A stretch of DNA of 64,000 nt, from positions 8,645 through 72,644 of the forward strand of contig MGIR01000001.1 of the NCBI GenBank assembly GCA_001793855.1, read 5' to 3'. Below are positions 6,094-63,141 of the stretch, piece by piece. A program made the position numbers and the translations under genes. The notes below the pieces were generated by a model, which saw only the letters and a list, made by a program, of their open reading frames with translations, was not told where the DNA came from and did no database searches. Source of the DNA: Candidatus Wolfebacteria bacterium RIFCSPLOWO2_01_FULL_45_19. GTDB lineage: Bacteria; Patescibacteriota; Minisyncoccia; UBA6257; GWB1-45-9. Positions within the stretch are counted from its first letter, which is position 1, and the number at the start of each line of letters is the position of its first letter.

Positions 6094-6907
6094 AAAATTA
6101 TTTTAGTCATGCCCAATAATTAGGGCTTACGAAGCTCTAAATATTACTCCAAAGTTATTTGCGATATATCGCGTGAATCCATCTCCTTGAGCCAGCTCGT
6201 CATTGATTTTTTATACTGCTCCGGCCCATCAAAAAATTTAAGCAAGAGATCTCTCTGCGTTACGGAGGGAAAATTCTTTTTACCGATATAATCCGGAAAA
6301 CTGCTCCATCGGTAGTTTTCTAAATAGGCAAACGCTTTTTTATAATCTTTGACATCTCGCTCTCTCCAATTTGGCGCGAAATAATCAAGCGGATTGCAGT
6401 GAATATAAAATGGGAGGTGAATAAAATGCGCGTCATTATCGACGGCGATACATTTATATCTTCCTTCAAAAAGCGCGCCGGCTCTTTTGTATTTTAGATT
6501 AAAATAATTCGCGTATCCCATATTCAATCGCCGCATAAAAAGCGTCAACCATTCTTTAGAGCGCGCCCTGACGAGTAAATGATAATGATTTTTCATTAAA
6601 CAAAAAGTTAACATCTCAGCCAACAATATCCGCGGCCTTCGCTGTTTTTGTTGCCTCTCAATATTAGGGCTTGCGAAGCCCGAAGGATTAGTTTTGAAAA
6701 GATAGGTATTATTTGGAAGCGGCTGAGCGTCGTTAAATTCAAATAAATTATGAATAAATCTCATAAAATCCTCTTCATCCAAAAAAAGTTTTCTTTTGTC
6801 AACTCCTCTGCTTAAAATGTGGTAAATATTTCCAGGTATAATTTGCGGCCTCATAATAAACATACTCTAGCGCAACACTTAGGGCTTCGCAAGCCCTAAG
6901 TGTTGCG
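6094..6907. mobile_element. REP/RAYT unit: IS200-like tyrosine transposase gene flanked by TTAGGGCTT-NGC-AAGCCCTAA hairpins
   Basis: Hairpins at ~6100-6128 and 6871-6907 (16-17 bp stem), plus a third copy inside the ORF at ~6663-6683. Confidence 0.6.
6144..6863 (-). CDS. REP-associated tyrosine transposase (RAYT, IS200/IS605 Y1 family)
   Basis: YHILSRG and NHYHLLV HuH motif. Confidence 0.7.
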   Translation of the reverse strand: MFIMRPQIIPGNIYHILSRGVDKRKLFLDEEDFMRFIHNLFEFNDAQPLPNNTYLFKTNPSGFASPNIERQQKQRRPRILLAEMLTFCLMKNHYHLLVRARSKEWLTLFMRRLNMGYANYFNLKYKRAGALFEGRYKCIAVDNDAHFIHLPFYIHCNPLDYFAPNWRERDVKDYKKAFAYLENYRWSSFPDYIGKKNFPSVTQRDLLLKFFDGPEQYKKSMTSWLKEMDSRDISQITLE

Positions 6908-16698: not shown

Positions 16699-16911
16699 TT
16701 ATCTTCTACGAACTAACCTCCCTCTTGCCTTGTCGTATGGACTCATCTCCACCAAGACCCTGTCACCGGGAACAACTCTTATATGATAAAGACGCATTTT
16801 CCCCGCGAGATACGCCAGTATTACGGAATCGTCCGAAAGGCGCACCTTGAAATTGCCTCCCGGCAAAGCTTCTTCTACCAACCCTTCCATCAACCGATTC
16901 TGATCACTCAT
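16699..16911 (-). CDS. infA: translation initiation factor IF-1
   Basis: S1-like IF-1 sequence. Confidence 0.9.
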
Positions 16912-16962
16912 ACAAATATAGAGACAATTTTACAAAACTCATAATCAATAGTCAAGTCCTCG

Positions 16963-18495
16963 TTACTGTATTATTATCCTAACCTTATCCGGGTTGTCGG
17001 GAATGGTTCCAACCCAAAACGGCCAGAAATTTATGCTCCCAGATTTAAAACCGGGCAAAGAATAAATGACCGCCTGCGCGTCGTCTTCCTTTTTCCCAAT
17101 CAAGTTGCGCATAAGCGCGTTTTCTTCAATCGGCCGCGCGAAAACACCTTTGAAATTCACGCGAAAAGAAAGAGATACTCTGTCCTCGCTCAGATTGGCG
17201 CCACTGTAACTTATTTCATATTCTCTAACCGCTATATCCGGATGCGAATCTTTTTTGGCGCGTTCGCGAAGCATCTCAACCAAATCACTCTCTTTGAATC
17301 CAAAAGCGATTCTTTCCGCTTCTCCAAAGACAGAGAATTTGCCGTCGCTGTTTGTTTCTTCGTTAATCACTTGCCTTATTACGCGCGAAGCAAAAGCGCC
17401 TTCTATAAAAACGAAACCGTCGGGAACGTTTTGCGCCAAAGTAATTTTCAACACGTCTTCAAGCGCCTGATTCACCGCTTTTTTCGCGGCGGCTATATCG
17501 CTTTCGGTAGGATATGCTTGTTCTCCTATGAATCCACCATCCATATTCCCGGAAGAAGAACCGTAGAAACCTTCAAAGCGCGGGGTGCCTCTGAATCCCG
17601 GAATTGAAAAACGGGCGACCGGCCCTACATTATATTCGGAACCAGGCTTGTCCGCGGTAACGTTCGCATTGATACTTGACGGCTCAATCTTGCCGCCAAC
17701 AATTTTGGCGCCGGGCACGGTAATGCCGCTGTCCAAACGATAAATCTTGCCGTCCGTGGTTTCAAAACGAGTTGTGGCGACAAGCGGCTGGGGACTGGAA
17801 CTGAAAGCGTTGTAAATTGTCATAACCCCTTTGGCCTTGCGCTCCACGAATCGCTTTCCCGAAGCCGAAAAAACCTGTTGGACATTTTTAGGTTCCGTGA
17901 ACAACGCTCCCGGAATCAGCGCGCCCTCCGCGTCAAAGGCCGCGAGCGATTTATCTGCCTTAACCAATCCGGCGTATTCCCATTCCGTTTTTTGAACATT
18001 TACGATCACTTCTACGCGCGGAAGAACTTTAACCGCGACAAACGCCGTTAAGCCCAAAATAGCTACTGACGCAATCACAAAAAGCGGTTTCTTTAAAAAT
18101 TTTCGAGGCGGCGAAATTTTTTCTACGTAGTCGTTTTGAACTTCCTGAGATTCTTCACGCTGTGATTCCGGCCGCGCTTGGCGCGCAACGTTTCTTCGCG
18201 CCGGAGGAATTATGTCCGAGAACGTCTTTTTTTGGTCAACTCCCCTGAAAAACGGATTGTAGCTTGCTATGCCGACGGATTCGGCAAGTGCCAGAATATG
18301 TTCGTCAACGGACTCGACTATTATTTTCTTTCCGGCGGTGTCCGCCTCACGCTTAAGCAATTCAAAATTCATCACAGATTCTCCAAGCTTGGAAAATCTG
18401 GGCACGTTTAAAACCGCCTCGACGTTTTCGGTATTTATTATTTTTTCAGCTATTGACGAAAGCTCTTCGCTTTTGCCTATAAATATCTTTGCCAT
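16963..18495 (-). CDS. hypothetical single-pass membrane protein (cytoplasmic N-domain, large extracytoplasmic C-domain)
   Basis: TM helix around residue 140. No recognised domain. It occupies the slot where secY-adk-map usually sit. Confidence 0.45.
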   Translation of the reverse strand: MAKIFIGKSEELSSIAEKIINTENVEAVLNVPRFSKLGESVMNFELLKREADTAGKKIIVESVDEHILALAESVGIASYNPFFRGVDQKKTFSDIIPPARRNVARQARPESQREESQEVQNDYVEKISPPRKFLKKPLFVIASVAILGLTAFVAVKVLPRVEVIVNVQKTEWEYAGLVKADKSLAAFDAEGALIPGALFTEPKNVQQVFSASGKRFVERKAKGVMTIYNAFSSSPQPLVATTRFETTDGKIYRLDSGITVPGAKIVGGKIEPSSINANVTADKPGSEYNVGPVARFSIPGFRGTPRFEGFYGSSSGNMDGGFIGEQAYPTESDIAAAKKAVNQALEDVLKITLAQNVPDGFVFIEGAFASRVIRQVINEETNSDGKFSVFGEAERIAFGFKESDLVEMLRERAKKDSHPDIAVREYEISYSGANLSEDRVSLSFRVNFKGVFARPIEENALMRNLIGKKEDDAQAVIYSLPGFKSGSINFWPFWVGTIPDNPDKVRIIIQ

Positions 18496-18978
18496 TTAAA
18501 GAATTCCCAACTCCCGTAAAAATGCTTTATAGTTTTCAATTGCGTGTCCGGCTTCAACCGGAGAAACTTCAAAACCCGGCGTGTGGACTATATTGTTGCG
18601 AAGACGATGCGCGCGCCAAAGCGCGTCCAAACTCCTCATTTCGTCAGTCGGTAGATTGTCCAAGCGGTCCGCCATATGTTCTCCCGGCAAGCCGATTTTC
18701 TTCAAAACGCCGTCAACGAACTTGTCTGCCTCAATAATAGCAATTTTTGCCGCTTCGGGCAAATCAACAGCCGCCCTCTTTTCAATCTCCGACCATTTTT
18801 CGGCAAACACGGCGTTTTTAGCCGTAAGAATACGTTTTTTTTTCATCTCTTGTAAAGAAAAACGCGGTCTAAAATTCAGGCTTTTCCGTAAAACATAAAT
18901 AATGCCCCCAAGCAAAGCGGCTACAAGAACGTACATAATAGTCTTGAAAATTATGAACCCGGATTGAAATATCTCCAT
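18496..18978 (-). CDS. hypothetical membrane-anchored protein with C-terminal Rx4H (HEPN-like) motif
   Basis: N-terminal TM; RLRNNIVH motif. Confidence 0.35.
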   Translation of the reverse strand: MEIFQSGFIIFKTIMYVLVAALLGGIIYVLRKSLNFRPRFSLQEMKKKRILTAKNAVFAEKWSEIEKRAAVDLPEAAKIAIIEADKFVDGVLKKIGLPGEHMADRLDNLPTDEMRSLDALWRAHRLRNNIVHTPGFEVSPVEAGHAIENYKAFLRELGIL

Positions 18979-18982
18979 CTCG

Positions 18983-20275
18983 TTATTTAAACTTCTCTAT
19001 TTCTTCCTCTTCTCCAAATATAGCCAATCCAGCCGGCGGACCGGCCTTGCGGCTTTCAACGCGTTTCAGATGCGGGGCGATAAGAACGAATTGTGTCGGC
19101 GGATGAAAAATAGTCGCGAGACATTCCGTGTTCAACACGAAAGGAATAGAGTGAAAATTCCAATACAGCCAATGCGAAGTGATCACGCGCCCCATAAATG
19201 TCTCCGGTGGAGTTTCTCTGCGCCGATAATTATAAAGAAAGCGCTGTTTACGATACATTATTCTTTTTTTCGCAAAAACATAGGGCCATGCGAACCGCTT
19301 AATCACAGTACTCGCGCTGTAATTCGGGCGAAACGAGTTAAGATTCAGCGCGGAATACTGGTTAAACGCGCCCATCACTCCGCGCCTGGCAAAGGCATCG
19401 AAAAAAATATCTTTTGGCGCGATATAAAGCAATCTTACTACGGCAGCAAAAGCCGACTTTGAAAGATTGTTTTCCACCTCCTCGAGCACAAACGTTTCGC
19501 CGGGAGTCCGCATCACTTTCGCGAAATCCATAGCTCCGGATGGAGCGCTTTTAGCCGCGCCTTTGGTTGCCGATTCTTTTAATTTCGCGATGGTGCCCCT
19601 GTATTTGTCCGCCCAATCCGGTCCGCTCGGAGTTATCAAAATCTGTATGCCGACAAATTCTCCTTTTTTAACTTTGCTTAAAAGTTCAATAAAAGTGGAC
19701 ATCGGGTCAAATTCTTTTTCTTCGGCTGGCGATTCAAATTTGAGATATGTTTTTATCGGATACGCGGATTCTTTTATCAATGCCAATTCCGTCCCCCAAA
19801 TACTCAACTCTCTTTCTTCCATTTCGCGCAAATTAACCGGGATCTGATTGGCGTAATCGTCAACCTCCGAAACTTCAACGTCGGGATAATAAGAAAAAAA
19901 CGCGGCTTCAACCAAACCACGGTATCGCGCGTAGGTTCTTACAAAAAAACGCACTTCGCCCCCTAAGCTGACCATTTCCAAAGAAAAAGGCCTCGTGACT
20001 TCGCCGTCTATGTATTCGTCTTTTAAATTGGCCGGAGAATTGCGGAGCGAATGAATAGCCGCCAAAACCTGCTCCATGGCCCTTACACCTTTTTTTATTT
20101 CACGCGGCATCCTTAATTCCAAAACCGCCCACTCGTTTTCGCTCTTAAACAATTCCTGCCTCCAAAAAAGCCATGCCGACCTAAAAATCGGCAAAAGTAC
20201 GATGGGAATAAAAAACCACCAAGTGGCTTTTATAAAATTCTGTGTTAGTTGTAGAATTAGAAAAAGCGGCTCCAC
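18983..20275 (-). CDS. hypothetical membrane-anchored protein
   Basis: N-terminal TM, 430 aa, no recognised motif. Confidence 0.4.
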   Translation of the reverse strand: MEPLFLILQLTQNFIKATWWFFIPIVLLPIFRSAWLFWRQELFKSENEWAVLELRMPREIKKGVRAMEQVLAAIHSLRNSPANLKDEYIDGEVTRPFSLEMVSLGGEVRFFVRTYARYRGLVEAAFFSYYPDVEVSEVDDYANQIPVNLREMEERELSIWGTELALIKESAYPIKTYLKFESPAEEKEFDPMSTFIELLSKVKKGEFVGIQILITPSGPDWADKYRGTIAKLKESATKGAAKSAPSGAMDFAKVMRTPGETFVLEEVENNLSKSAFAAVVRLLYIAPKDIFFDAFARRGVMGAFNQYSALNLNSFRPNYSASTVIKRFAWPYVFAKKRIMYRKQRFLYNYRRRETPPETFMGRVITSHWLYWNFHSIPFVLNTECLATIFHPPTQFVLIAPHLKRVESRKAGPPAGLAIFGEEEEIEKFK

Positions 20276-20282
20276 TTCAAAA

Positions 20283-21284
20283 TTATACCTCTTTTACGCG
20301 GTATTTTCCATCCGAAGTTCGTTCAAAAAAGTTTTTATTTTGAAGATTCAAAAAAACGGTGTTGGGCTTAAAAAATCTTTCACTCTGCACCGCGAGCAAA
20401 ACATCATTCGCGCGCATCGGGCCTTTTTCTTTCAAAATTCTTCGGATTACTTCCTTCGCTATGCCCGGTTTGTGGCCGTATTCAGCAAGCCCATACATTC
20501 CGCGGCCGACCAAAACAAAACGCTCGTCTTTTATCAATTCGTTGTGAACCGTCTGCGCGTATGCTTTCTTGCTGTTAAAATTCATTTTGTTTATTTCTTC
20601 CGCTATCTCCGAAAAATGCATCGGCTTCACTATCTTTTTAAGAACTATGTGCGCTTTTTCTTTCACGGTTTTCGGATATATTTCGGGCCACTCCGAAAGT
20701 CCGATGTCGCCGTAAGGATTGACGCCAAATCTTTTTGAAATTGAAACGTAATTCAGGCCAACGGCTTCACTAAGTCCGTGAGCTTTGGCCGCGGCGGCGA
20801 AAAGAACGCCAAACTTCCCTTTGTCAATAACTTCGTTTTTATTATCTTTCAAGGACACTTCCAGTTTTTTCAAAAAATTCCGCGTGCGGACCATTGCGTT
20901 TTTATCGGTGTGCCAAAAAGCGTGAAATTCGCCGTCTTCGTCGCGATGAAAAACGGCGCCGTTTACTTTCAAAATAAAAGCGGCCGCGCCGGGAAAACGC
21001 AAAGAAAAGCGGTCAGTTATTTCAACTCCACCGAGCGAACGAAGATACGAAACCGCGTCGGCAACGACTTTCTTGGCTTCTTCGTCGCGGTTGACTGCTT
21101 CGGCCGCGGATTTAAGCGCGGCGACTTCAATCTGACGGACGCGTTCCCGCGTAATTCCATATTTTCCCCCAAGCGCGGCAAGAGTTATTTTTCCCACTCT
21201 GCCGTTAAATCCATAACGAGCGGTCAAAATCTCGCGTTGTTTATCCGTAAGACCGGATAAAAGCCGTTTTAACAGCATTTGCAT
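20283..21284 (-). CDS. sigma-70 region-4 HTH + C-terminal HARE-HTH domain protein
   Basis: N-terminal LTDKQREIL...GITRERVRQIE (sigma region 4). C-terminal MHFSEIAEEI...RFVLVGRGMYGL (HARE-HTH / RNAP delta-like). Confidence 0.6.
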   Translation of the reverse strand: MQMLLKRLLSGLTDKQREILTARYGFNGRVGKITLAALGGKYGITRERVRQIEVAALKSAAEAVNRDEEAKKVVADAVSYLRSLGGVEITDRFSLRFPGAAAFILKVNGAVFHRDEDGEFHAFWHTDKNAMVRTRNFLKKLEVSLKDNKNEVIDKGKFGVLFAAAAKAHGLSEAVGLNYVSISKRFGVNPYGDIGLSEWPEIYPKTVKEKAHIVLKKIVKPMHFSEIAEEINKMNFNSKKAYAQTVHNELIKDERFVLVGRGMYGLAEYGHKPGIAKEVIRRILKEKGPMRANDVLLAVQSERFFKPNTVFLNLQNKNFFERTSDGKYRVKEV

Positions 21285-21315
21285 ACAACGAGTTTAGCAT
21301 TATTTGAGTTAAAGT

Positions 21316-21379
21316 GTCAACCCCGCCTCTGAAATATGTTTCAGAAGCGAGGTTGACAAAACTTTCTCATAGATACAAT
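21316..21379 (+). promoter_or_regulatory. sigma70-like promoter (TTGACA ... TACAAT) embedded in a nested palindrome
   Basis: GTCAACC...TCTGAAATATGTTTCAGA...GGTTGAC overlaps the -35 box upstream of the 21387 ORF. Confidence 0.45.
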
Positions 21380-21386
21380 ATAAAAA

Positions 21387-21725
21387 ATGACTATGGAAAA
21401 CCGCGAAAAACAAGACGAGACGGCCGATGAACGGCCTATGACAGAAACCGAGCTTACCATCAGCAATTGGTTCTGGATTGAGTTTATGAAACGTATGGGA
21501 AAATCCGAAGCCGATCTCCCGGCGCTTATAGAAAAATACGGCGGGCTCGAAGAACATATCTTTTTCAAAAATGAAGAACGCGCGGAACATCTCGACGACG
21601 CGGCGCTTGAATCGCTCGCGCGCGACGCGGAAGCCGTCTTATTGCGAGGAGAGCCGCTTGAATCGCACCCTAAATTGCTCAAGCTTTACAAGCATATTGA
21701 AGCAAAACTATTGCGGGGGCACTAG
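21387..21725 (+). CDS. hypothetical acidic protein
   Basis: ORF with a good upstream promoter. Its 3' end overlaps tRNA-Trp by ~12 nt. Confidence 0.35.
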   Translation: MTMENREKQDETADERPMTETELTISNWFWIEFMKRMGKSEADLPALIEKYGGLEEHIFFKNEERAEHLDDAALESLARDAEAVLLRGEPLESHPKLLKLYKHIEAKLLRGH

Positions 21726-21784
21726 GAATCGAACCCAGATTGGCGGTTTTGGAGACCGCCGTCCTGCCATTGAACGATGCCCCC
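21714..21784 (-). tRNA. tRNA-Trp (anticodon CCA)
   Basis: Manual cloverleaf: acceptor GGGGGCA/TGCCCCC, anticodon loop CTCCAAA, T-loop TTCGATT. Confidence 0.8.
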
Positions 21785-21794
21785 GGATTAAAAT

Positions 21795-21880
21795 CTCTAA
21801 ACCCTTATCTCTAAATCCTAAACGTTTGAAGTTTTGAATTTGAGATTTATTTAGAAATTAGATATTAAAAATTAGGATTT
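21795..21880. repeat. palindromic heptamer-repeat element (ctaaatcc / ggatttag family)
   Basis: The left arm tctaaacccttatctctaaatcctaaac is nearly identical to the arm of the element inside the 16S gene at 32221. Confidence 0.7.
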
Positions 21881-21891
21881 ACATAAAAAAG

Positions 21892-22062
21892 CTACTTTCT
21901 CGCTTCTTTATGCGCGGTATGTTTTCTGCACCAATCACAAAATTTGGAAAGTTCAATCTTTCTTTCAACTTTCTTTTTATTTTTGTGCGCATTATAATTC
22001 ACACGCTTGCATTCGGCGCAGCGAAGCCGCACAAATCTTTCCGATGTTTTTATTTTAGCCAT
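21892..22062 (-). CDS. rpmG: 50S ribosomal protein L33 (56 aa; not in ORF track)
   Basis: Minus-strand translation MAKIKTSERFVRLRCAECKRVNYNAHKNKKKVERKIELSKFCDWCRKHTAHKEARK. Confidence 0.8.
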   Translation of the reverse strand: MAKIKTSERFVRLRCAECKRVNYNAHKNKKKVERKIELSKFCDWCRKHTAHKEARK

Positions 22063-22069
22063 AATTTTG

Positions 22070-22141
22070 AGCCAGCGGGGAGAATTGAACTCCCGCTCTT
22101 TCCCTTACCAAGGGAGTGCTTTACCACTAAGCTACGCTGGC
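22070..22141 (-). tRNA. tRNA-Thr (anticodon GGT)
   Basis: Manual fold: acceptor GCCAGCG, D-loop AGTGGTA, anticodon loop TTGGTAA, T-loop TTCAATT. Confidence 0.7.
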
Positions 22142-22185
22142 GTCAGTATAACACATATTAACACGCTCAACAAGAAAGAAAAGTG

Positions 22186-22257
22186 AGCCACCTCTCGGAT
22201 TCGAACCGAGGACCCACGCTTTACAAAAGCGTTGCTCTGCCGCTGAGCTAAGGTGGC
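22186..22257 (-). tRNA. tRNA-Thr (anticodon TGT)
   Basis: Manual fold: acceptor GCCACCT, anticodon loop TTTGTAA, T-loop TTCGAAT. Confidence 0.75.
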
Positions 22258-22307
22258 GGATTGAATTTTGAAACGCCGCCGAATATAATAATACCACCGG
22301 TGAAAAA

Positions 22308-22394
22308 GCGCAGGTAGTCCCGTAGGGCGCGGGGGCAGACTGTAAATCTGTTGGCCATTGGCCCCGGTGAGTTCGACTCTCACTCTGCGCACCA
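22308..22394 (+). tRNA. tRNA-Tyr (anticodon GTA), long variable arm, CCA encoded
   Basis: Anticodon arm GCAGACTGTAAATCTGT and T-arm GTGAGTTCGACTCTCAC. The D-arm is unusual. Confidence 0.55.
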
Positions 22395-22581: not shown

Positions 22582-23787
22582 TTAGTAGTAAGTGTAAGTG
22601 GTATAACTTGAATAAGCGCTCCAAGTGCACAACCCGGCGTTCAGAGGAGAGCTAGTATTAGTAGCTTTTCTGGAACCGCCTCCGTAGGGATAACAACTTC
22701 CATCAAACGGCCAGCCATTGGCGTCGGAAGTAGGAACCGTGCCATTTTGAGCGTATAAAGACACTCCAGGACTACTGCAAGCATAAGTAAGATTTGTGCA
22801 GGTCGCGTCACTCATATAACAGTTGAAGCCATTCGTAACTCCGTTCCACGAAACCATCCAAAAGCTAACCGTGTCGGCGCCGGACTGGCAACTACTGGGG
22901 GTCGGCGGGGTACAACTATATGACGCTCCCGGAGTAGCAGTTGATGCACCATTTGCACATTGTCCCAAGAAATTATAGCCTGTGCCAGTAGTGTAATTAT
23001 CCCAATATCTGTTGCAATCCTCATCAATGAGAGGCGTTGCCGAACCGGACCCTCCTACTGCCGAACAAGTCGCATTTTGCGAGAACGCCGCGACTGACGC
23101 GCTGTCCGAAATCCGTTGCAGTCTGATTTGCAGTCCGGTTGCATTCCAAGTCGTTGCGGTAAAGTTATCGCCATTCAATTGAGCGGCCGCGTTGGTCGTG
23201 TTGGCATCGCAATTGTAAGTGGCATAGCTTAAGTCAGTCCATACTGAACCGGTGTAATACTGCAACCGACAGCCGCCCACCCCTCCGTTGCCTGTGCCGG
23301 CAGTCCAGCTGACGGTGAAGTCCCTGCGCCTGACCGTCTGAGTTAAGACAAGCGAAGTCGGCGGAGAAGAGGCGCCCCAAACACAAGAAGTCGCGCCGTC
23401 GCTGGTTTTAACCCAGCCGGTTCCGTTGCAGGCGCAGGTCGTGTAACCTGCAGTCATAGCCAACGATTTGCTTGTTGAAGCGTCACAAGTAAAAGGACTG
23501 GAAGAGTTTATTGGAAATTTTAACGCTCCTGTCGCCTCAATAATCCCGTTAATCGTGAGCTTGCTTGCCGGAGAAACTGTGCCGATGCCGACATTGCCGG
23601 TTCCGGGGTCAAATACTAAACCAGCGGTGCTTGTCGCGTTGCCTACCCGAAACCCGCCGCTCACGTCAAAAGTGTACTCCGGCGTTATTCCGATGCCGAT
23701 GTTTCCGCTACTGAACTTAAGGTTTCCACCGCCGATGCCTGGGCTTAAACTGGCGGGGCCGGTGAATCCGAGCGCGACAAAAACCAA
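22582..23787 (-). CDS. Cys/Thr/Gly-rich secreted or surface protein
   Basis: N-terminal hydrophobic segment. GTGNVGIGT repeats and many Cys. Confidence 0.55.
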   Translation of the reverse strand: MVFVALGFTGPASLSPGIGGGNLKFSSGNIGIGITPEYTFDVSGGFRVGNATSTAGLVFDPGTGNVGIGTVSPASKLTINGIIEATGALKFPINSSSPFTCDASTSKSLAMTAGYTTCACNGTGWVKTSDGATSCVWGASSPPTSLVLTQTVRRRDFTVSWTAGTGNGGVGGCRLQYYTGSVWTDLSYATYNCDANTTNAAAQLNGDNFTATTWNATGLQIRLQRISDSASVAAFSQNATCSAVGGSGSATPLIDEDCNRYWDNYTTGTGYNFLGQCANGASTATPGASYSCTPPTPSSCQSGADTVSFWMVSWNGVTNGFNCYMSDATCTNLTYACSSPGVSLYAQNGTVPTSDANGWPFDGSCYPYGGGSRKATNTSSPLNAGLCTWSAYSSYTTYTYY

Positions 23788-23863
23788 GAAACCGGAAACT
23801 AAGATACTTATTGATATTAATAGATATTTATTGATATTCGTGAATCCAGATTAATTTGTTTGC

Positions 23864-24331
23864 TCACCAGACGCATGCCGTTATGCCGTCGCTGGTTTTA
23901 ACCCAGCCGGTCCCGTTGCAGGCGCAGGTCGTGTAACCTGAAGTCAATGACAATGAGCCGGCATTTGAAGCGTTACAGGTAAAAGGAGCCGATGCGTTAG
24001 CCACCAATTTGAATCCCCCCAAAGTGGATTCAATAATCCCGTTGATCATGAGCTTGCTTGCCGGAGAAACGGTGCCGATGCCGACATTGCCGGTTCCGGG
24101 GTCAAATACTAAACCAGCGGTGCTTGTCGCGTTGCCTACCCGAAATCCGCCGCTCACGTCAAAAGTATATAAAGGCGTTATTCCTAAGCCGGTGTTTCCG
24201 CCAGAAGTTACAAAAAACCCAGAGCCAGTTCCCGGAGAAACCGAAGGGCCTGTAAATCCCAACACAACCGATACAAAGATGCCGGCGGATACTATTATAC
24301 CTGCGGATATCAACAGATATTTATTGATCAT
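23864..24331 (-). CDS. truncated paralogue of the 22582-23787 gene (tandem partial duplication)
   Basis: About 95% nucleotide identity over ~450 bp with 23390-23790. It diverges after TSDG. Confidence 0.5.
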   Translation of the reverse strand: MINKYLLISAGIIVSAGIFVSVVLGFTGPSVSPGTGSGFFVTSGGNTGLGITPLYTFDVSGGFRVGNATSTAGLVFDPGTGNVGIGTVSPASKLMINGIIESTLGGFKLVANASAPFTCNASNAGSLSLTSGYTTCACNGTGWVKTSDGITACVW

Positions 24332-26708: not shown

Positions 26709-27167
26709 CTATCTCGTGATATTTCCATTTTCCAAAACGCTTACATTGATTATACCGTCTCCGACGGTGGTTAGCAAAGTAAATGTAGCCGTATTATCAG
26801 GGACGCCGCTTATTTTAAGAAAATTGATTATCGTTGAATTTCCCTGCGCCGGAGAGCTGAATTCAATATGCGACGGCAAAGTTACCGAACGATGCGTAGT
26901 TGAAGCGCCACCGATTGTCTCGGCGTAAAAAATATCGTACCTATCCCCGTCACCAGCCGGCGCGTTTACATATACTCCCCAAAAACTTGATTCCAGTTCG
27001 CTTATGGAATTTTGCTGGGCTTCGCGAAGAGTTTGAACAAGCTTGTCTGATTCAAATTCCAAAGTACGTTGAACCCGCAAGTTTTGAATCGTGAGCAAAC
27101 CTATACCGCCGACAATCACCGTTATGCCGAGCGAAATCAGAAGCTCAATTAAGGTAAAACCCTTCAT
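26709..27167 (-). CDS. type IV pilin/pseudopilin
   Basis: MKGFTLIELLISL class III signal. Confidence 0.75.
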   Translation of the reverse strand: MKGFTLIELLISLGITVIVGGIGLLTIQNLRVQRTLEFESDKLVQTLREAQQNSISELESSFWGVYVNAPAGDGDRYDIFYAETIGGASTTHRSVTLPSHIEFSSPAQGNSTIINFLKISGVPDNTATFTLLTTVGDGIINVSVLENGNITR

Positions 27168-28375
27168 ATACTACCAATAAGTTGATAGATCGGAACTATT
27201 ATTGAAAGCGCTATTGTTCCTATTATAACTCCGAGAACGAGAAGCATTGCCGGTTCAAGGAACGACACAAGTGTTTTTATTGAATTGTCTATTTCCGATT
27301 CGTAAAACTTTGAAAGCGTGTCCAGGATGTCTTCCAAATGCCCGGCTTTTTCCGAAATCGCGACAAGATTGACGACAACTTTCGGAAAAACCTGCTCCCG
27401 TCTGAACGCATCGCCGACGGTCATCCCCTTAACGAGGCCCTCGCGCGAAACGCGCATAAGCGCCTCTTTCAATTCCTCCCAACCGACGGCCCGCGAAGTA
27501 ATTTCAAGCGAATCGGTTATATGCAAACCGGCGCGCATAAGAGACGAGAACGTGGAAGTAAATCTCTGCAAAGACGTTTTGCGTAAAACTTCGCCGAGAT
27601 ACGGAACGCGAAACGCGAAACGCTGAAGGACGCGCCTCGCGTTTATGTTTTTTGAAAGCACGTACCAGCCGCCGAAGGCCGCGCTCGCAAGCAAAATAAG
27701 AACATAAATAATATTATTACTGATAAAAAGCCCGACACCGAACACCACTCTGGAGAAAAGCGGCGGCTCAAATCCTCCGGTCATAAAAACTTCGGCTATT
27801 TTCGGCAAAGCGAAAGTAACCAAAAGAAGAAGAATGATGAAAGACGCGGCGAGAAGCACAACGGGATAAATGAGCGCGGAACGGATACGGCCTCGCAGTT
27901 CCTGTTCTCGCTCCAAAGAAACCGACAGGTCCTCAAGAACTTTGTCCAGAGTTCCGGATTTCTCGCCGGCGCGAATAAGATTGACAAACGCGGACGAAAA
28001 AAATTTCGGATATTGCGCGAAAGTGGTGTAAAACGGATTTCCTTTTTCAAGATTTGAGCGTATCTGAAGCAGAAGGGCTTTGATGGTCGGTTTTTCAAAA
28101 TCGTTTATAAGAATGTCTATTGCTTTGAAAAGGTCAGTTCCGGCCCTAAGCATCAGCGCGAGATATTTCGTCAAAAACAACTGATCAAGCGTGGTAAACG
28201 TGGGACCAAAAAGGCGGGCGCGAACCCCACCGCCAAAACCTTTGGCGATTTTTATAGAAATAGGGCGCAGGCCTTGCGCGCCAAGCTTCGCGAGCAATTC
28301 GTCGGTGTTCCCGGCTTCCATGCTATCTTCAACTATTTTTCCTTCCGCGTTAGACGCGACGTAATGGAATAACAT
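27164..28375 (-). CDS. pilC: type IV pilus platform protein PilC / GspF family
   Basis: Two GspF-type repeats and polytopic membrane topology. Confidence 0.8.
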   Translation of the reverse strand: MLFHYVASNAEGKIVEDSMEAGNTDELLAKLGAQGLRPISIKIAKGFGGGVRARLFGPTFTTLDQLFLTKYLALMLRAGTDLFKAIDILINDFEKPTIKALLLQIRSNLEKGNPFYTTFAQYPKFFSSAFVNLIRAGEKSGTLDKVLEDLSVSLEREQELRGRIRSALIYPVVLLAASFIILLLLVTFALPKIAEVFMTGGFEPPLFSRVVFGVGLFISNNIIYVLILLASAAFGGWYVLSKNINARRVLQRFAFRVPYLGEVLRKTSLQRFTSTFSSLMRAGLHITDSLEITSRAVGWEELKEALMRVSREGLVKGMTVGDAFRREQVFPKVVVNLVAISEKAGHLEDILDTLSKFYESEIDNSIKTLVSFLEPAMLLVLGVIIGTIALSIIVPIYQLIGSI

Positions 28376-28379
28376 AATT

Positions 28380-30089
28380 CTACTCCCTAATTACCCGAAG
28401 CACTTCTTCAAGCGTAGTCATGCCTTTTTCCGCTTTACGGAGACCATCTTCAAACATTGAAATCATTCCTTCTTTCCTCGCCAAGTTCTTAAGCGCGCCA
28501 AGAGAAAAGTCGGACGACACTATTAATTTTCGCACGTTTTCGGTAACATTCAAAACTTCAAAAATACCCATTCTGCCGCGATAGCCGGTGTTATTACAAC
28601 TGCGGCAGCCCTTGGCTTTGAACACAAGCTTAGGCGGTTTGAATTCACGGCTTATTCCGAGTTCCTCCCATTGTTTTTTAACCGCTTCAACGACATCCGA
28701 CGATGGTTTTTGCGACTGGATGCAATACGTACAAACGCGGCGCAACAAGCGTTGAGCCAGCACGGCGTTTATCACTGCCGCGACAAGAAAGGCGGGAATT
28801 TTCATATCGGTAAGACGAGGCACCGCGGTTGAGGCGTCATTGGTATGCAAAGAAGAAAGAACGAGGTGGCCGGTCAGCGCGGAGTGCACGGATATTTCAG
28901 CGGTTTCTTCGTCGCGGATTTCTCCGACCATTATTACGTTCGGGTCCTGACGGAGAATGGCGCGAAGTCCGTTCGCAAAAGTGATTCCGGCCTGCGGATT
29001 AATCTGCGTCTGATTGACATACTGAATATCGTATTCTATCGGGTCTTCAATGGTAACGATGTTGACTTCCGGACGGTTTAAAATGTTGAGAATGGAATAA
29101 AGCGTCGTGGTTTTTCCGGAACCGGTCGGGCCGGTAACCAACACTATACCGTAGGTCTTCTGTGTATTTTCTTTAATGGTTTTAACTGTATCTTCTTCCA
29201 TTCCCAATTCTTCAAAAGAAAGCGGTCGCTGAGCCGCGGTCAAAAGACGCATTTCAATTTTTTCCCCGTAAAAAACCGGCATAATCGCGACTCGGACGTC
29301 AACAATTTCTTTTTCTATTTTGTAACGAAATCTTCCGTCTTGCGGACGGCTGTGCTCGTCAAGTTTCAAACCGCTCACGAGCTTTATTCGCGCCGCCATG
29401 GCGTCGCTTATTTCTTTCGGCAGTTTGAGAATTTCATGAAGAATGCCGTCAACGCGGTACCGAATTAAAATAATATCTTCCAGCGCTTCAATATGGATGT
29501 CGGAGGCGCGAAGAGAAAGGGCGTATTTAAGAATATTGTCAACCAGCGCGACAATCGGAACGTCTTTCGCGGCTTCTTCCACGCCCGCGGCGCGCGAACG
29601 AAACGCCTGTCGCACATTTTCTTCCATTATTTTCTGGAAATCTCCGGAGAGTTCTTTGCCGTAAAAAGCATACGCCTTGTTGAGGTCGTCGTCGCTCGCG
29701 AGAAACGGGCGGACTTTGGCGTTGAATCTCCGTTCTATGAGTTCAACTGTTTCAAGATTGCCCGGGTCCTCCATCGCCACATCAAGCGTCCCGTCGGTTT
29801 CGCGGCCGAAAATCACGACGCGCCTCTGGCGCGCAACGTTTTCCGGAAGCATTCTCACTAAATTGTCGTCAAGCTGAATCTCCACGAAATTGGCTTTCCG
29901 GACTCCAAGATATTCGGCTACAATCTCGGCGAGGTAAGTTTGAGTAATTATATTTTTCGAAAGAAGAACGTCGTTTGTTGAGGTGCCGAGGCGCTCGGCT
30001 TCTTCTCTGGCCTGCTCAAAGGCTTCTGCCGTAATAAGACCGGCGTCAGTAAGAATCTGCTTTAACTTATCCGAAGGAATTTGAAGCAT
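28380..30089 (-). CDS. pilB: type IV pilus assembly ATPase PilB / GspE family
   Basis: Walker A GPTGSGKTTT, a Cys4 cluster, and a GspE N-terminal domain. Confidence 0.85.
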   Translation of the reverse strand: MLQIPSDKLKQILTDAGLITAEAFEQAREEAERLGTSTNDVLLSKNIITQTYLAEIVAEYLGVRKANFVEIQLDDNLVRMLPENVARQRRVVIFGRETDGTLDVAMEDPGNLETVELIERRFNAKVRPFLASDDDLNKAYAFYGKELSGDFQKIMEENVRQAFRSRAAGVEEAAKDVPIVALVDNILKYALSLRASDIHIEALEDIILIRYRVDGILHEILKLPKEISDAMAARIKLVSGLKLDEHSRPQDGRFRYKIEKEIVDVRVAIMPVFYGEKIEMRLLTAAQRPLSFEELGMEEDTVKTIKENTQKTYGIVLVTGPTGSGKTTTLYSILNILNRPEVNIVTIEDPIEYDIQYVNQTQINPQAGITFANGLRAILRQDPNVIMVGEIRDEETAEISVHSALTGHLVLSSLHTNDASTAVPRLTDMKIPAFLVAAVINAVLAQRLLRRVCTYCIQSQKPSSDVVEAVKKQWEELGISREFKPPKLVFKAKGCRSCNNTGYRGRMGIFEVLNVTENVRKLIVSSDFSLGALKNLARKEGMISMFEDGLRKAEKGMTTLEEVLRVIRE

Positions 30090-59690: not shown

Positions 59691-60349
59691 GTAACAAAAT
59701 ACGCCCGGACGCGTTTCGTCTGGGAATAACTAAAAATTGGAGCTCGAGATGGTTCAAAAGAAGAAACTTTCAGTCCTTTTTAGAGGAGGATGTTTTGATT
59801 AGGAAAACAATTCAGGATAAAATTTCATCCGCCGGCATAGCAGGAATAGATATAGAAAAAACAGGTGATTCGTTTCGAATCACAATCAAAGCCGCGAAAC
59901 CCGGCTTTGTTATAGGCCGCGGAGGAAAAGGTATTGAAGAGCTGACGCGCGAAATAGAAAAAAAACTCGCCAAATACAGAATCGGCAAAAAACCGTCGTT
60001 AAGCGTTAACGTGGAAGAGCTTAAGAGAAGCGATGTATCCGCCGCGGTACTTGCCCAAAATATCGCTTGGGATTTGGAAAAACGTCAATCCGCGAGAAGA
60101 ACGATGAAAAAATATCTTGAAGCGATAATGCAAAATCGTGACGTTAAGGGCGCGAAAATACGTCTCTCCGGCAGGATTAACGGCGCGGAAATATCCAGAC
60201 GTGAATGGTTGGCAAAAGGCGCGATGCCGCTTCAGACCCTAAGAGCCGATATTGATTACGGCACAGCGACTGCGTTTACTTCCTCTGGAACCATCGGCTT
60301 GAAGGTGTGGATATATAAAGGCGAATTATTTGAAGACTCTAAACACTAA
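59687..60349 (+). CDS. rpsC: 30S ribosomal protein S3
   Basis: KH and S3-C domains. Confidence 0.9.
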
Positions 60350-60354
60350 ATTTC

Positions 60355-60768
60355 ATGCTTGTTCCAAAAAAAGTAAAACATAGAAAGTGGCAGAAGGGCC
60401 GTTCCAAAAAACGTACGGTTGAAACGCGCGGAACCAAACTTGAATTTGGAAGTTTTGGCCTTCAGTCTCTCGGGGCGAGTTGGGTTAACTCAAGGCAAAT
60501 TGAAGCTGGCCGAAAAGCGATAACGCACCATATGAAAAGAGAAGGAAAATTATGGATAAGAATTTTTCCGGACAAGCCGATTACAAAAAAACCACCGGAA
60601 GTGACAATGGGCGGTGGCAAGGGTGCTGTGGAAGAATATGTTTTTCCGGTAAAGCCCGGAAGAATAATTTTTGAATTGGATGGCGTTACGAAAGATATCG
60701 CGGAGGAAGCGCTACGGCTAGCCGGGCATAAATTGCCGGTAAAAACAAAAATAGTTTCAAAAATATGA
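60355..60768 (+). CDS. rplP: 50S ribosomal protein L16
   Basis: Conserved sequence. Confidence 0.9.
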
Positions 60769-60965
60769 AGCGTAAAGAATACGAAGAATTAAAAGCAAAA
60801 CCTGTCGTGGAATTACAAAAAGAGCTACGGGTGGCAAGGGAGCGTTTGAGGGCGCTTAAATTTGATTTGGCCGCCGGGAAAACCAAAAATGTTCGGGAAC
60901 TGCGTTCTTTGAAAAAAGATATAGCCAGGATTTTAACGATATTGCGAGAAACTAAGAAATTATGA
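60765..60965 (+). CDS. rpmC: 50S ribosomal protein L29
   Basis: Position and similarity. Confidence 0.8.
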
Positions 60966-61213
60966 AACTGAAAGAACAAGTAAAAAAAAGAAAATTGGAA
61001 GGCATTGTCGTTTCGGACAAGATGCAGAAAACAAGAGTGGTTGAAATAACGCGGTTTAAGAAAAATCCCAAATACTTGAAGTATTACAAAGTAAGCCGCA
61101 AATTTAAGGCGCATGACGAGAATAACGAATACAAGACGGGGGATAAGGTTGTTATTGAAGAAACAAGGCCGCTGAGCAGGGAAAAGAGGTGGAGAATCGT
61201 GCAAAAGATTTAA
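60962..61213 (+). CDS. rpsQ: 30S ribosomal protein S17
   Basis: Conserved sequence. Confidence 0.85.
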
Positions 61214-61274
61214 GATATAAGATTTAAGAAGTAAGAGTCTTAAATCATAAACCTTAAATCCTAAATCTAAACAA
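61214..61274. repeat. taagat/atctta heptamer palindrome
   Basis: agatataagatttaagaagtaagagtc ttaaatcataaaccttaaatcctaaatct. Confidence 0.6.
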
Positions 61275-61643
61275 ATGATACAAGAACGCGCAATATTAAA
61301 AGTAGCCGACAATTCCGGAGCGAAAACAATTCGCTGTTTTCGCGTTTTGGGAGGAACAAGACGGCGTTACGCGCGAATAGGCGACGTATTTGTCGCTTCT
61401 GTTCAAGTCGCGGAACCTCGCAAGGCGTTAAAGAAAAAAGACATTGTTAGGGCAGTTGTGGTAAGACAAAAGGCTCCTATGCGAAGAGCCGACGGCTCTT
61501 ACGTCAGATTTGACGAAAACGCTGCGGTAATAATAGACGAAAAACGCCAGCCAAAAGCATCGCGCGTTTTCGGACCAATGCCGCGTGAATTAAAAGAAAA
61601 AGGTTTTGAATCCATAATAACAATGGCGGAAGAAATTGTATGA
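61275..61643 (+). CDS. rplN: 50S ribosomal protein L14
   Basis: Conserved sequence. Confidence 0.95.
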   Translation: MIQERAILKVADNSGAKTIRCFRVLGGTRRRYARIGDVFVASVQVAEPRKALKKKDIVRAVVVRQKAPMRRADGSYVRFDENAAVIIDEKRQPKASRVFGPMPRELKEKGFESIITMAEEIV

Positions 61644-61945
61644 ATATCAAAAAGAACGACGCGGTAAAAATTATAGCCGGGAAAGATAAAGGCAAGACGG
61701 GCAAGGTCATACTCGTGGATTATAAAAAAGGCAAACTTACGATAGATGGCCTGAATTTGTATAAAAAGCATGTCAGGCCTAAGCGCAAAGGCGAAAAAGG
61801 GCAGATTATTTCAACGCCAAGATCCATTGACGCTTCAAACGCCATGCTTGCGTGCGGTTCATGCGATAAGGCGGTTCGTGTCGGCTATCGCGTCGAAAAC
61901 GGTCAAAAACAAAGAATATGCAAAAAATGCAAAGCGATAATTTAA
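61640..61945 (+). CDS. rplX: 50S ribosomal protein L24 with C-terminal CxxC...CxxC zinc-ribbon extension
   Basis: KOW core plus CGSCDKAVRVGYRVENGQKQRICKKCK. Confidence 0.85.
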   Translation: MNIKKNDAVKIIAGKDKGKTGKVILVDYKKGKLTIDGLNLYKKHVRPKRKGEKGQIISTPRSIDASNAMLACGSCDKAVRVGYRVENGQKQRICKKCKAII

Positions 61946-62409: not shown

Positions 62410-62500
62410 ACTAAAGAATTAAAGAACCAAAGAACGGAAGAGTAAAGAACGGTTTATGAGTTCTTAAGTTCATAAGTTCTCAAGTTAAACAAATTAAACA
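62410..62500. repeat. aagaac/gttctt octamer palindrome
   Basis: ctaaagaattaaagaaccaaagaacggaagagtaaagaac ... gttcttaagttcataagttctcaagtt. Confidence 0.7.
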
Positions 62501-62502
62501 AA

Positions 62503-63133: not shown

Positions 63134-63141
63134 ATCTAAAC

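What the first reader, a model, noticed from the sequence alone, without database searches (positions are those of the whole stretch)
16963..20275. Three membrane-anchored hypothetical proteins occupy the secY-adk-map slot upstream of infA, one with a HEPN-like Rx4H motif
The infA-rpmJ-rpsM-rpsK-rpsD-rpoA-rplQ block is normally preceded by secY, adk and map. Here it is preceded by a 510-aa single-pass membrane protein, a 160-aa TM protein ending in RLRNNIVH (an Rx4-6H HEPN-like signature), and a 430-aa TM protein. None has a recognisable domain. A sigma-region-4/HARE-HTH regulator follows. It may be a lineage-specific envelope or defence module.
Basis: inference. Interest (0 to 1): 0.5.

Follow-up and report, generated by a model that had tools for sequence, protein, structure and literature searches.

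The report
Two juxtaposed conserved CPR membrane modules
The three genes are real but are not one unit: two of them (a VirB4-like membrane anchor and a membrane-tethered HEPN-fold protein) are half of a widespread, uncharacterised ATPase system of Patescibacteria whose motor gene is missing at this locus, and the third is the usual gene found just upstream of infA in this lineage.

Summary
The three minus-strand ORFs exist exactly as described: D at 16963-18495 (510 aa), C at 18496-18978 (160 aa) and B at 18983-20275 (430 aa). They are tightly packed upstream of infA. They do not replace secY-adk-map, which sit intact after rplO about 1 kb beyond the window end.

The trio is a junction of two independent modules.
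- **Module 1.** In 80 species-level genomes the order is secDF, sigma4/HARE-HTH (A), DUF8128 (B), C, T4CP/VirD4-like soluble ATPase, then Cys-rich paralogs. B is followed by C in 78/78 loci, and C by the ATPase in 71/73.
- **Module 2.** D is a single-pass protein with a GlxA/baseplate-J-like beta-barrel. It precedes infA in 54/64 loci and is never near B or C in 80 independent loci.

Only this window and its closest relatives lack the ATPase here. B and C remain as conserved relative to rpoA as elsewhere.

I found no support for a defence role. The HEPN guess was right; the single-module and "slot" ideas were not. Function remains inferred.

The parts
20283..21284 (-). Gene A (333 aa). Sigma-70 region 4 (residues 8-58, nt 21111-21263) plus HARE-HTH (residues 206-268, nt 20481-20669). 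Conserved first gene of module 1.
   Evidence: Pfam Sigma70_r4 E 1.3e-13 and HARE-HTH E 1.5e-12. Directly upstream of the B homolog in 70/75 genome loci.
18983..20275 (-). Gene B (430 aa, GTG start). DUF8128 family. N-terminal hydrophobic helix (residues 17-38, nt 20162-20227), then an alpha/beta domain with the fold of the non-ATPase N-terminal part of VirB4 (about residues 49-400, nt 19076-20131). No Walker A motif.
18496..18978 (-). Gene C (160 aa). N-terminal TM helix (about residues 8-32, nt 18883-18957), then a HEPN domain predicted to be cytoplasmic (residues ~53-157, nt 18508-18822).
18583..18600 (-). Codons for R127-N-N-I-V-H132, the Rx4H (RNxxxH) HEPN signature of C.
   Evidence: R127, N128 and H132 are invariant in 40 homologs at 45% mean column identity, together with W62, D85, H101, D104, R105, W121 and H124.
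16963..18495 (-). Gene D (510 aa). Conserved N-terminal ~95-aa domain (nt 18211-18495), charged linker, one TM (residues 137-159, nt 18019-18087), and a C-terminal region predicted to lie outside the cell that contains a GlxA/baseplate-J-like beta-barrel (residues 220-312, nt 17560-17838). The usual gene immediately upstream of infA in this lineage.
   Evidence: PF21110, 26.0 bits (cutoff 27) in the window protein; 47/52 homologs match. phrog_6 baseplate wedge subunit matches 43/52 homologs, over residues 217-292 only. Followed by infA in 54/64 loci.
16699..16911 (-). infA, the downstream neighbour and start of the infA-rpmJ-rpsM-rpsK-rpsD-rpoA-rplQ-rplM-rpsI block.
   Evidence: ORF list. PF01176 on the homologous genes in L005 and L167.
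16927..16955 (-). Promoter-like site (TTGACT-17-TAAAAT) in the 51-nt D-infA gap. No terminator-like site lies between D and infA.
   Evidence: Consensus scan only; sequence shown.
21291..21320 (-). Promoter-like site (TTGACA-18-TAAACT, with TG) upstream of A. Candidate start of an A-B-C-D(-infA...) transcript.
   Evidence: Consensus scan only.

Best explanation
The interval is a compaction junction between two unrelated, vertically inherited gene sets of Paceibacteria-type Patescibacteria (CPR).

**Module 1: A, B and C.** This is the front half of a conserved cluster: secD-secF, sigma4/HARE-HTH (A), DUF8128 (B), TM-HEPN (C), a soluble T4CP/VirD4-like P-loop ATPase, then 0-6 Cys-rich Zn-ribbon paralogs.
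- B is a stand-alone, membrane-anchored copy of the VirB4 N-terminal-domain fold.
- I infer that B tethers and organises the TM-less hexameric ATPase at the membrane. VirB3 plus the VirB4 N-terminal domain do this in type IV secretion systems. EccE sits beside the FtsK-like EccC in type VII systems in a similar way.
- C places a HEPN domain with an intact RNxxxH site at the cytoplasmic face of the membrane. It could cut RNA there, or act as a dimeric docking adaptor for the ATPase, as the HEPN protein VBP does for VirD4.
- In this window's small subclade, the ATPase, the Cys-rich genes and the gene that normally precedes D are absent from the locus. That absence leaves C abutting D.

**Module 2: D.** D is a single-pass membrane protein with a baseplate-J/GlxA-like beta-barrel. 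In this class it normally sits immediately upstream of the detached infA-rpoA operon.

**Shown versus inferred.** Shown: gene order statistics, folds, invariant residues, and the location of secY-adk-map. Inferred: the B-ATPase interaction, RNase or adaptor activity for C, membrane topology, co-transcription, and whether the ATPase exists elsewhere in this genome.
For: **Synteny**
- In 80 species-level genomes: B then C in 78/78 loci, C then ATPase in 71/73, A then B in 70/75, secF then A in 58/60.
- The same order holds on a 729-kb contig.
- In 80 independent metagenome loci: D then infA in 54/64, the upstream 406-aa gene then D in 55/59, and none has A, B, C or the ATPase within 8 kb.
- The reduced order A-B-C-D-infA occurs only in the closest relatives, L007 (64% B identity) and L167 (71%). 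L168 (60%) has secDF-A-B-C and then a partial gene cut by the contig end.

**Folds**
- C matches HEPN proteins, and its motif is invariant.
- The partner ATPase has no TM segment. It matches DUF87, T4SS-DNA_transf, TrwB_AAD_bind and TraG-D_C.

**Breadth**
- DUF8128 has 2,557 50%-identity cluster representatives at E <= 1e-3. The top 150 are all about 150-590 aa, most of them 400-530, so none is long enough to be fused to an ATPase domain.
- Distant members keep sigma4-DUF8128-ATPase, in one case with an 8-nt overlap between the last two genes.

**Still under selection here**
- Window versus L007: rpoA 79%, B 64%, C 57% identity.
- Canonical pairs at similar rpoA identity: 51-58% for B and 46-49% for C.

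**Operon location and literature**
- secY-adk-map lie after rplO just beyond the window end.
- PMC12102498 reports 5,713 VirD4-like T4CPs in Patescibacteria, only 148 of them near virB4, and raises the possibility that they were exapted. It also describes TrsD as a stand-alone VirB4-N-terminus-like protein.
- PMC3953389 shows that the dimeric HEPN protein VBP binds VirD4.
- PMC3710099 describes membrane-associated HEPN groups.
Against: - No T4CP-like ATPase lies in the 64-kb window or in 10 kb beyond either end. The proposed partner of B is therefore unobserved in this organism.
- The B-VirB4 similarity is structural only. Sequence identity is 6-9%, Foldseek TM-scores are about 0.3, and a profile search of PDB sequences found nothing. 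The aligned residue ranges in TrwK were not available to me.
- C's Pfam support is weak: HEPN_Swt1 matches 6 of 40 members, best E 0.015.
- No biochemical activity, interaction or expression data exist.
Its domain calls cover only about 90 of 510 residues.
- D's topology is ambiguous by charge balance.
Confidence: 0.6

Rival explanations
1. One reading: B, C and D form one lineage-specific envelope or anti-phage defence module. It has inserted where secY-adk-map normally sit, and the HEPN protein is the abortive-infection effector.
For: The three genes are contiguous with 0-4 nt gaps. C is a genuine HEPN with an intact RNxxxH motif, a domain common in defence systems. HerA/FtsK-type ATPases also occur in defence; the partner ATPase matches PADLOC mad8 and HerA.
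Against: - D is never within 8 kb of B or C in 80 D-centred loci, and only 6 of 80 B-centred loci contain D.
- B, C and D have no PADLOC hit.
- The cluster sits at a fixed chromosomal position beside secDF across about 80 species. Identities track rpoA and GC content is normal. None of that resembles a mobile defence island.
- secY-adk-map are intact elsewhere.
Confidence: 0.05
2. B and C are a decaying remnant. After the ATPase and Cys-rich genes were deleted, the two genes lost their function and persist only because the deletion is recent.
For: The ATPase that follows C in 71/73 relatives is absent from this locus and from about 84 kb of surrounding sequence.
Against: - Both ORFs are full length and keep every family-invariant residue.
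- The reduced arrangement is shared by relatives only 64-71% identical in B, so it is old.
- Relative to rpoA, B and C are at least as conserved in this subclade as in canonical lineages.
Confidence: 0.08
3. C works on its own as a membrane-proximal RNase that processes or degrades RNA at the Sec translocon. This would be analogous to the predicted role of bacterial membrane-associated HEPN proteins and of Ire1/C6orf70. B and the ATPase would then be only genomic neighbours, so loss of the ATPase from the locus has no consequence for C.
For: - Invariant RNxxxH plus additional invariant H101, D104, R105 and H124.
- The HEPN domain is predicted to be cytoplasmic.
- The cluster is adjacent to secDF in 58/60 loci.
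- The prediction has precedent in PMC3710099.
- Distant lineages lack C between DUF8128 and the ATPase, so C is an add-on. In one lineage the slot holds a PDDEXK_3 nuclease-fold gene instead.
Against: C is inserted precisely between B and the ATPase in 71/73 loci with short gaps, which argues for a functional link. There is no activity data. HEPN domains can also be non-catalytic binders, as VBP is.
Confidence: 0.17
4. D is functionally tied to translation or the ribosome because of its fixed place at the head of the infA-rpoA operon, rather than being an envelope protein.
For: D is followed by infA in 54/64 loci. No terminator-like site lies between D and infA in the window.
Against: - D has a strong TM segment and about 350 residues predicted to lie outside the cell, including a beta-barrel shared with secreted GlxA and phage baseplate proteins.
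- A promoter-like site lies in the D-infA gap.
- In 10/64 loci infA does not follow D.
Confidence: 0.05

Closest known systems
VirB4 N-terminal domain and stand-alone TrsD-like proteins of monoderm (MPF-FATA) type IV secretion systems
   Different: B shows no detectable sequence similarity to VirB4 and has no ATPase domain. It carries its own N-terminal hydrophobic helix. It is encoded next to a T4CP-like ATPase beside secDF, not next to virB4, virB6 or virB3. I did not test whether B is a TrsD homolog.
Type IV coupling proteins (VirD4/TrwB/TraG), specifically the 'orphan' T4CP homologs of Patescibacteria
   Same: The ATPase that follows C in relatives matches T4SS-DNA_transf, TrwB_AAD_bind, TraG-D_C and DUF87. 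PMC12102498 found 5,713 such genes, mostly far from virB4, and raised the possibility that they were exapted.
   Different: The ATPase lacks the N-terminal TM domain of canonical T4CPs. It is 77-84% identical between species. No such gene is present in this window.
Bacterial membrane-associated HEPN proteins (Anantharaman et al. 2013, PMC3710099), Swt1/Abi2-like branch
   Same: Single TM helix plus a HEPN domain predicted to be cytoplasmic, with an intact Rx4H motif. The only recurrent Pfam match is HEPN_Swt1.
   Different: None of the three described architectures fits: there is no WP-signature TM, no extra N-terminal helical domain and no Zn-ribbon. C has additional invariant H101/D104/R105/H124. 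It has a fixed genomic partner set (DUF8128 plus the ATPase) restricted to one CPR branch.
HepT/HEPN-MNT type VII toxin-antitoxin toxins
   Different: No MNT nucleotidyltransferase gene is adjacent. C is membrane-anchored, sits at a fixed syntenic position and is not mobile. It lacks the RX4HXY tyrosine context; the sequence reads RNNIVHTP.
VBP (VirD2-binding protein) of Agrobacterium
   Same: A HEPN-domain protein that acts with a T4CP. Dimeric VBP binds VirD4 and serves as a docking or recruiting factor (PMC3953389).
   Different: VBP is soluble, has an N-terminal nucleotidyltransferase domain and serves a conjugative T-DNA system. No homology to C beyond the fold was tested.
EccE of mycobacterial ESX type VII secretion systems
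   Different: The score is much weaker than for VirB4. No other ESX components are present.
Baseplate J (gp47/gpJ-type) barrel domain and GlxA domain 2 (PF21110)
   Same: D residues ~217-312 match PF21110 in 47/52 homologs and phrog_6 (baseplate wedge subunit) in 43/52.
   Different: Only about 90 of 510 residues match. D is a single-pass cellular membrane protein at the head of a ribosomal operon. It has no other phage or copper-oxidase features.

Membership tests
HEPN superfamily (protein C) | All-alpha up-and-down helical bundle of the HEPN fold | tested here: met
HEPN superfamily (protein C) | Conserved Rx4-6H motif, usually with a polar residue after the R | tested here: met
   R127-N128-x3-H132 is invariant in 40 homologs. 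RNxxxH is expected in 0.9% of shuffles.
HEPN superfamily (protein C) | Metal-independent endoribonuclease activity or nucleotide binding, acting as a dimer | not testable with these tools
   Needs biochemistry. No multimer model could be run.
HEPN-MNT (HepT) toxin-antitoxin | Adjacent minimal nucleotidyltransferase antitoxin gene | tested here: not met
   The neighbours are B and D here, and B and the T4CP-like ATPase in 71/73 relatives. No nucleotidyltransferase gene lies beside C.
DUF8128 (PF26449) (protein B) | Match to the Pfam model | tested here: inconclusive
   The Pfam copy I could scan returned no family for B, even at E <= 1. Precomputed annotation assigns PF26449.1 to nearly all of the 120 listed homologs, including one 99% identical, and names it DUF8128.
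VirB4 (T4SS ATPase) (protein B) | N-terminal domain fold | tested here: met
VirB4 (T4SS ATPase) (protein B) | C-terminal RecA-like ATPase domain with Walker A/B motifs | tested here: not met
   No [AG]xxxxGK[ST] motif in B, and no ATPase Pfam hit. B is not a VirB4.
Type IV coupling protein system (VirD4/TrwB) | P-loop T4CP gene in the locus | tested here: not met
   Present after C in 71/73 relatives. Absent from the window and from 10 kb beyond each end.
Complete type IV secretion system (MPF-FATA) | virB4 together with virB6/virB3/virB8-like genes nearby | not tested
   No T4SS-specific profiles were available. None of the 14 window proteins I scanned against Pfam matched such a family, and none appeared in the precomputed Pfam annotation of five canonical loci I inspected.
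Known anti-phage defence systems (PADLOC-DB 2.0) | Match of component proteins to defence-system profiles | tested here: not met
   No hits for B, C or D at E <= 0.1. A matches only through its sigma region 4 (MzaA).
GlxA beta-barrel domain PF21110 (protein D) | Score above the Pfam gathering threshold | tested here: inconclusive
   The window protein scores 26.0 bits against a cutoff of 27. 47/52 homologs match, best E 1.6e-7.
Baseplate J / gp47 family (protein D) | Full-length match to the baseplate J profile | tested here: not met
   Only residues 217-292 match phrog_6 profile positions 147-209 of 548. Pfam Baseplate_J matches 1 of 52 members at E 0.055.
Canonical spc-alpha operon junction (secY-adk-map-infA) | infA directly preceded by map | tested here: not met
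   secY-adk-map follow rplO on the opposite strand just beyond the window end. map lies within 8 kb of D in only 3 of 80 loci, and downstream of D in each.

The most novel reading that the evidence does not exclude
The cluster sigma4/HARE-HTH, DUF8128, (HEPN), TM-less T4CP-like ATPase, Cys-rich Zn-ribbon proteins may be an undescribed core membrane machine of Patescibacteria.
- It would be a split VirB4/T4CP-type translocase exapted from conjugation machinery for a housekeeping, nucleic-acid-related task at the membrane.
- It would have an interchangeable nuclease slot: HEPN in Paceibacteria, a PDDEXK_3 gene in another lineage, and nothing in others.
- This window's subclade would then show that the anchor (B) and the HEPN protein (C) are retained under selection when the motor gene is not adjacent. 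That implies either a relocated motor or a motor-independent role for B and C.
Probability: 0.25. Interest if true: 0.7.

Novelty: new variant of a known kind. Interest (0 to 1): 0.45.

Why it matters
Patescibacteria make up a large share of bacterial diversity, and most of their conserved genes have no assigned function. A 2025 survey found thousands of VirD4-like coupling-protein genes in them that are not next to any secretion system, and it left their role open.

This analysis gives those orphan ATPases a consistent genomic context and a plausible membrane anchor. The context includes a protein with the fold of the VirB4 N-terminal domain, a sigma4/HARE-HTH protein and, in one large branch, a membrane-tethered HEPN domain. 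That makes the question testable through interaction assays, RNase assays and gene-essentiality screens.

For this particular window the practical message is more modest. The apparent three-gene island is a by-product of gene loss between two conserved modules, not a new unit. The ribosomal-operon "slot" is not occupied by anything unusual.

Tried and rejected
1. **Sequence searches against solved structures.** Profiles of B, C, D and the 406-aa gene that precedes D in relatives gave nothing significant. The best results were C versus the Rpb5 N-terminus at E 0.02, D versus dihydroorotase at E 0.044, and the 406-aa gene versus FtsA at E 0.22.
2. **Family scans.** NCBIfam gave nothing useful for B, C or D. 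The Pfam copy I could scan returned no family for B.
3. **Defence-system profiles (PADLOC).** No hits for B, C or D, so I rejected the defence reading.
4. **Looking for the missing ATPase.**
   - Pfam scans of ten large window ORFs found only PilB, PilC, IF-2, PBPs, Mur ligase and similar.
   - tblastn of the window found no hit.
   - The 10 kb beyond each window end contains none.
   - The rest of the genome could not be reached.
5. **The 406-aa gene.** An HMM search of the window, its extensions, L007 and L167 found nothing.
6. **Foldseek against afdb50.** That library was unavailable.
8. **Literature.** "DUF8128" returned no papers. A search for HARE-HTH plus sigma returned nothing relevant.
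9. **Fusions.** I looked for B-like domains fused to ATPases among 1.84 billion representatives. None of the top 150 hits is long enough to be fused.
10. **Pseudogene idea for B and C.** Rejected on conservation relative to rpoA.


Full report
**1. What is in the sequence**

The three ORFs are exactly where the finding places them, all on the minus strand:
- D: 16963-18495, 510 aa
- C: 18496-18978, 160 aa
- B: 18983-20275, 430 aa, GTG start preceded by an AAGAGG Shine-Dalgarno-like sequence

Upstream in transcription order lies A (20283-21284, 333 aa), with Sigma70_r4 (E 1.3e-13) and HARE-HTH (E 1.5e-12). Downstream follow infA (16699-16911), rpsM, rpsK, rpsD, rpoA, rplQ, rplM and rpsI.

The junctions are 7 nt (A/B), 4 nt (B/C) and 0 nt (C/D, TAA then ATG). 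The D-infA gap is 51 nt. It holds a promoter-like site and no terminator-like site. GC content (0.44-0.49) matches the rest of the window.

Hydropathy gives one strong TM in D (residues ~137-159), one in C (~3-34) and a borderline N-terminal segment in B (17-38).

**2. The "secY-adk-map slot"**

The str/S10/spc ribosomal genes lie on the plus strand at about 51-64 kb, and the window ends in rplF. Three public contigs at least 99.9% identical to window 53097-64000 continue rplR-rpsE-rplO-secY-adk-map and then pilus genes. So secY, adk and map are intact, about 1-4.5 kb past the window end. The alpha operon is simply detached and inverted. Nothing has replaced them.

In 80 D-centred loci, map lies within 8 kb in only three, and downstream of D in each.

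**3. The three genes are not one unit**

*B-centred loci.* A scan of one genome per species returned 186 relatives of B, of which the best 80 loci were fetched. Gene order in those loci:

| Adjacency | Count |
|---|---|
| B followed by C | 78/78 |
| C followed by a T4CP-like ATPase | 71/73 |
| A followed by B | 70/75 |
| secF followed by A | 58/60 |

The ATPase is usually followed by 0-6 tandem Cys-rich paralogs of about 560-600 aa. The same order holds on a 729-kb contig.

*D-centred loci.* In 80 independent metagenome loci, D is followed by infA in 54/64 and preceded by a conserved 406-aa gene in 55/59. None contains A, B, C or the ATPase within 8 kb.

*When the two modules meet.* In 5 of the 80 B loci besides L007, the two modules are close, with D and infA within about 7 kb downstream of B-C-ATPase. 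The order there is A-B-C-ATPase-(U)-(406-aa gene)-D-infA, and the U and 406-aa genes are each absent in some of these loci.

*The reduced order.* Only the window and its closest relatives show A-B-C-D-infA: L007 (64% B identity) and L167 (71%). The next relative at 60% has secDF-A-B-C and then a gene cut off by the contig end.

The simplest reading is loss or relocation of the genes between C and D in a recent ancestor. These would be the ATPase and, where present, the Cys-rich and 406-aa genes.

**4. Protein C**

- Forty homologs (45% mean column identity) share invariant W62, D85, L92, H101, A103, D104, R105, W121, H124, R127, N128, H132, F153 and E156.
- The motif sits at residues 125-132, not at the C-terminus. 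A bare Rx4-6H occurs in 56% of shuffles, so on its own it means little. RNxxxH occurs in 0.9%.
- The AF2 model is confident (pLDDT 91; helices 2-36, 53-70, 74-94, 102-107, 117-132 and 140-157).
- The only recurrent Pfam signal is weak HEPN_Swt1, in 6 of 40 members.
- Nine K/R residues follow the TM and none precede it, so the HEPN domain is predicted to be cytoplasmic.
- No MNT gene is adjacent, so C is not a HepT-MNT toxin.
- Membrane-associated HEPN groups have been described and predicted to act on RNA at the inner face of the membrane (PMC3710099). C fits that idea but none of the three described architectures.

**5. Protein B**

- Homologs carry PF26449 = DUF8128. The Pfam copy I could scan did not report it.
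- B is highly conserved: 55% mean column identity and 42 invariant columns.
- The AF2 model (pLDDT 86.7, pTM 0.84) has a long N-terminal helix followed by alpha/beta repeats.
- The Foldseek top 12 hits are all TrwK chains, with E 1e-4 to 3e-3 and TM-scores of about 0.3.
- B has no Walker A motif.

Taken together, the match is to the non-ATPase N-terminal part of VirB4. This is an inference, because the aligned ranges were not reported. TrsD is a known stand-alone protein resembling the VirB4 N-terminus and is common in Patescibacteria (PMC12102498).

**6. The missing partner**

- The gene after C in relatives encodes a soluble protein of about 470-500 aa with no TM segment. It has a Walker A motif and matches DUF87, T4SS-DNA_transf, TrwB_AAD_bind and TraG-D_C.
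- It is 77-84% identical across species.
- DUF8128 has 2,557 50%-identity representatives at E <= 1e-3. The top 150 are all about 150-590 aa, most of them 400-530, so none is long enough to be fused to an ATPase domain.
- Distant members keep sigma4-DUF8128-ATPase without C, in one case with an 8-nt gene overlap. In one lineage a PDDEXK_3 gene lies where C would be.
- PMC12102498 counted 5,713 VirD4-like T4CPs in Patescibacteria, only 148 of them near virB4, and raised the possibility that they were exapted.
- In this window no such ATPase exists, nor in 10 kb beyond either end.

B and C are nevertheless not decaying. Between the window and L007, rpoA is 79% identical, B 64% and C 57%. Canonical pairs at similar rpoA identity show 51-58% for B and 46-49% for C.

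**7. Protein D**

- PF21110 (GlxA beta-barrel) scores 26.0 bits against a cutoff of 27 in the window protein. It matches 47 of 52 homologs.
- phrog_6 (baseplate wedge subunit) matches 43 of 52 homologs, but only over residues 217-292.
- A profile search of PDB sequences found nothing.
- D has a conserved ~95-aa N-terminal domain, a charged linker, one TM and a region of about 350 residues after it.
Its function is unknown. Its best-supported property is its position at the head of the detached infA-rpoA operon.

**8. Mechanism (inferred)**

I propose that B anchors and organises the TM-less hexameric ATPase at the membrane. C would contribute a cytoplasm-facing HEPN site that either cleaves RNA or acts as a dimeric docking adaptor.

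VBP is the precedent for the adaptor role. It is a HEPN protein that binds VirD4 only as a dimer (PMC3953389).

The syntenic position beside secDF in every locus recovered, and the absence of PADLOC hits, argue for a housekeeping role rather than a defence role. None of these functional steps has been shown.

**9. Verdict**

This window holds only a truncated copy of it.

Noticed in passing
L001:12529-19404, and most of L008-L086 downstream of the ATPase: There are 0-6 tandem paralogs of about 560-600 aa that are Cys-rich and have no TM segment. They have CxxC zinc ribbons at both ends and a conserved C-terminal ...CExCYQxEVV. One has a weak treble-clef zinc finger hit (PF23477). They are absent from the window. 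They could be substrates or partners of the ATPase.
   Followed up: partly
L008-L086, ATPase gene after the C homolog (for example L039:11886-13262): The T4CP-like ATPase is 77-84% identical between species whose rpoA is only about 55-80% identical. That is unusually strong conservation for a supposedly accessory T4SS-type protein.
   Followed up: partly
L177:3055-3447: In one distant lineage the position between DUF8128 and the ATPase holds a 130-aa PDDEXK_3 (nuclease-fold) gene instead of the HEPN gene. The ATPase there also carries a C-terminal treble-clef zinc finger. In L174 and L178 the position is empty. This hints at an interchangeable nuclease slot, but it could equally be a selfish insertion.
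   Followed up: no
L005:7772-8992 and upstream of D in 55/59 loci (L087-L166): A conserved ~400-aa gene with no Pfam match precedes D. Its best PDB sequence hit is FtsA (1e4f) at E 0.22, which is not significant. It is absent from the window, the window's extensions, L007 and L167.
   Followed up: partly
window 6144-6863 (-): An IS200/IS605-type Y1 transposase gene (PF01797 in the identical contig L172) lies between the EPSP-synthase-fold gene (PF00275) and a class II aminoacyl-tRNA synthetase gene.
   Followed up: no
window 22582-24331 (-): Two adjacent ORFs (401 aa and 155 aa) share a nearly identical ~100-aa N-terminal segment (...GFTGP..SPG...TFDVSGGFRVGNATSTAGLVFDPGTGNVGIGTVSPASKL...). 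They lie next to prepilin-like genes and a PilB/PilC pair at 27164-30089. This suggests a duplicated or variable surface-protein cassette.
   Followed up: no
window 21387-21725 (+) and 21713-22394: A 112-aa acidic ORF of unknown function lies on the opposite strand between gene A and a cluster of tRNA-Trp, two tRNA-Thr and tRNA-Tyr, with rpmG at 21892-22062. secDF, which precede A in 58/60 relatives, are missing here. The locus has therefore been rearranged on both sides of A-B-C.
   Followed up: no
L176:4790-5860: In one distant lineage the sigma region 4 and HARE-HTH parts of gene A are encoded as two separate genes (94 aa and 252 aa) upstream of DUF8128.
   Followed up: no
L134, L154, L163: In 3 of 80 D loci, map (and adk in one of them) lies 2-3 kb downstream of D, and infA was not detected anywhere in these loci. 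This is a different local arrangement of the spc/alpha junction in some lineages.
   Followed up: no
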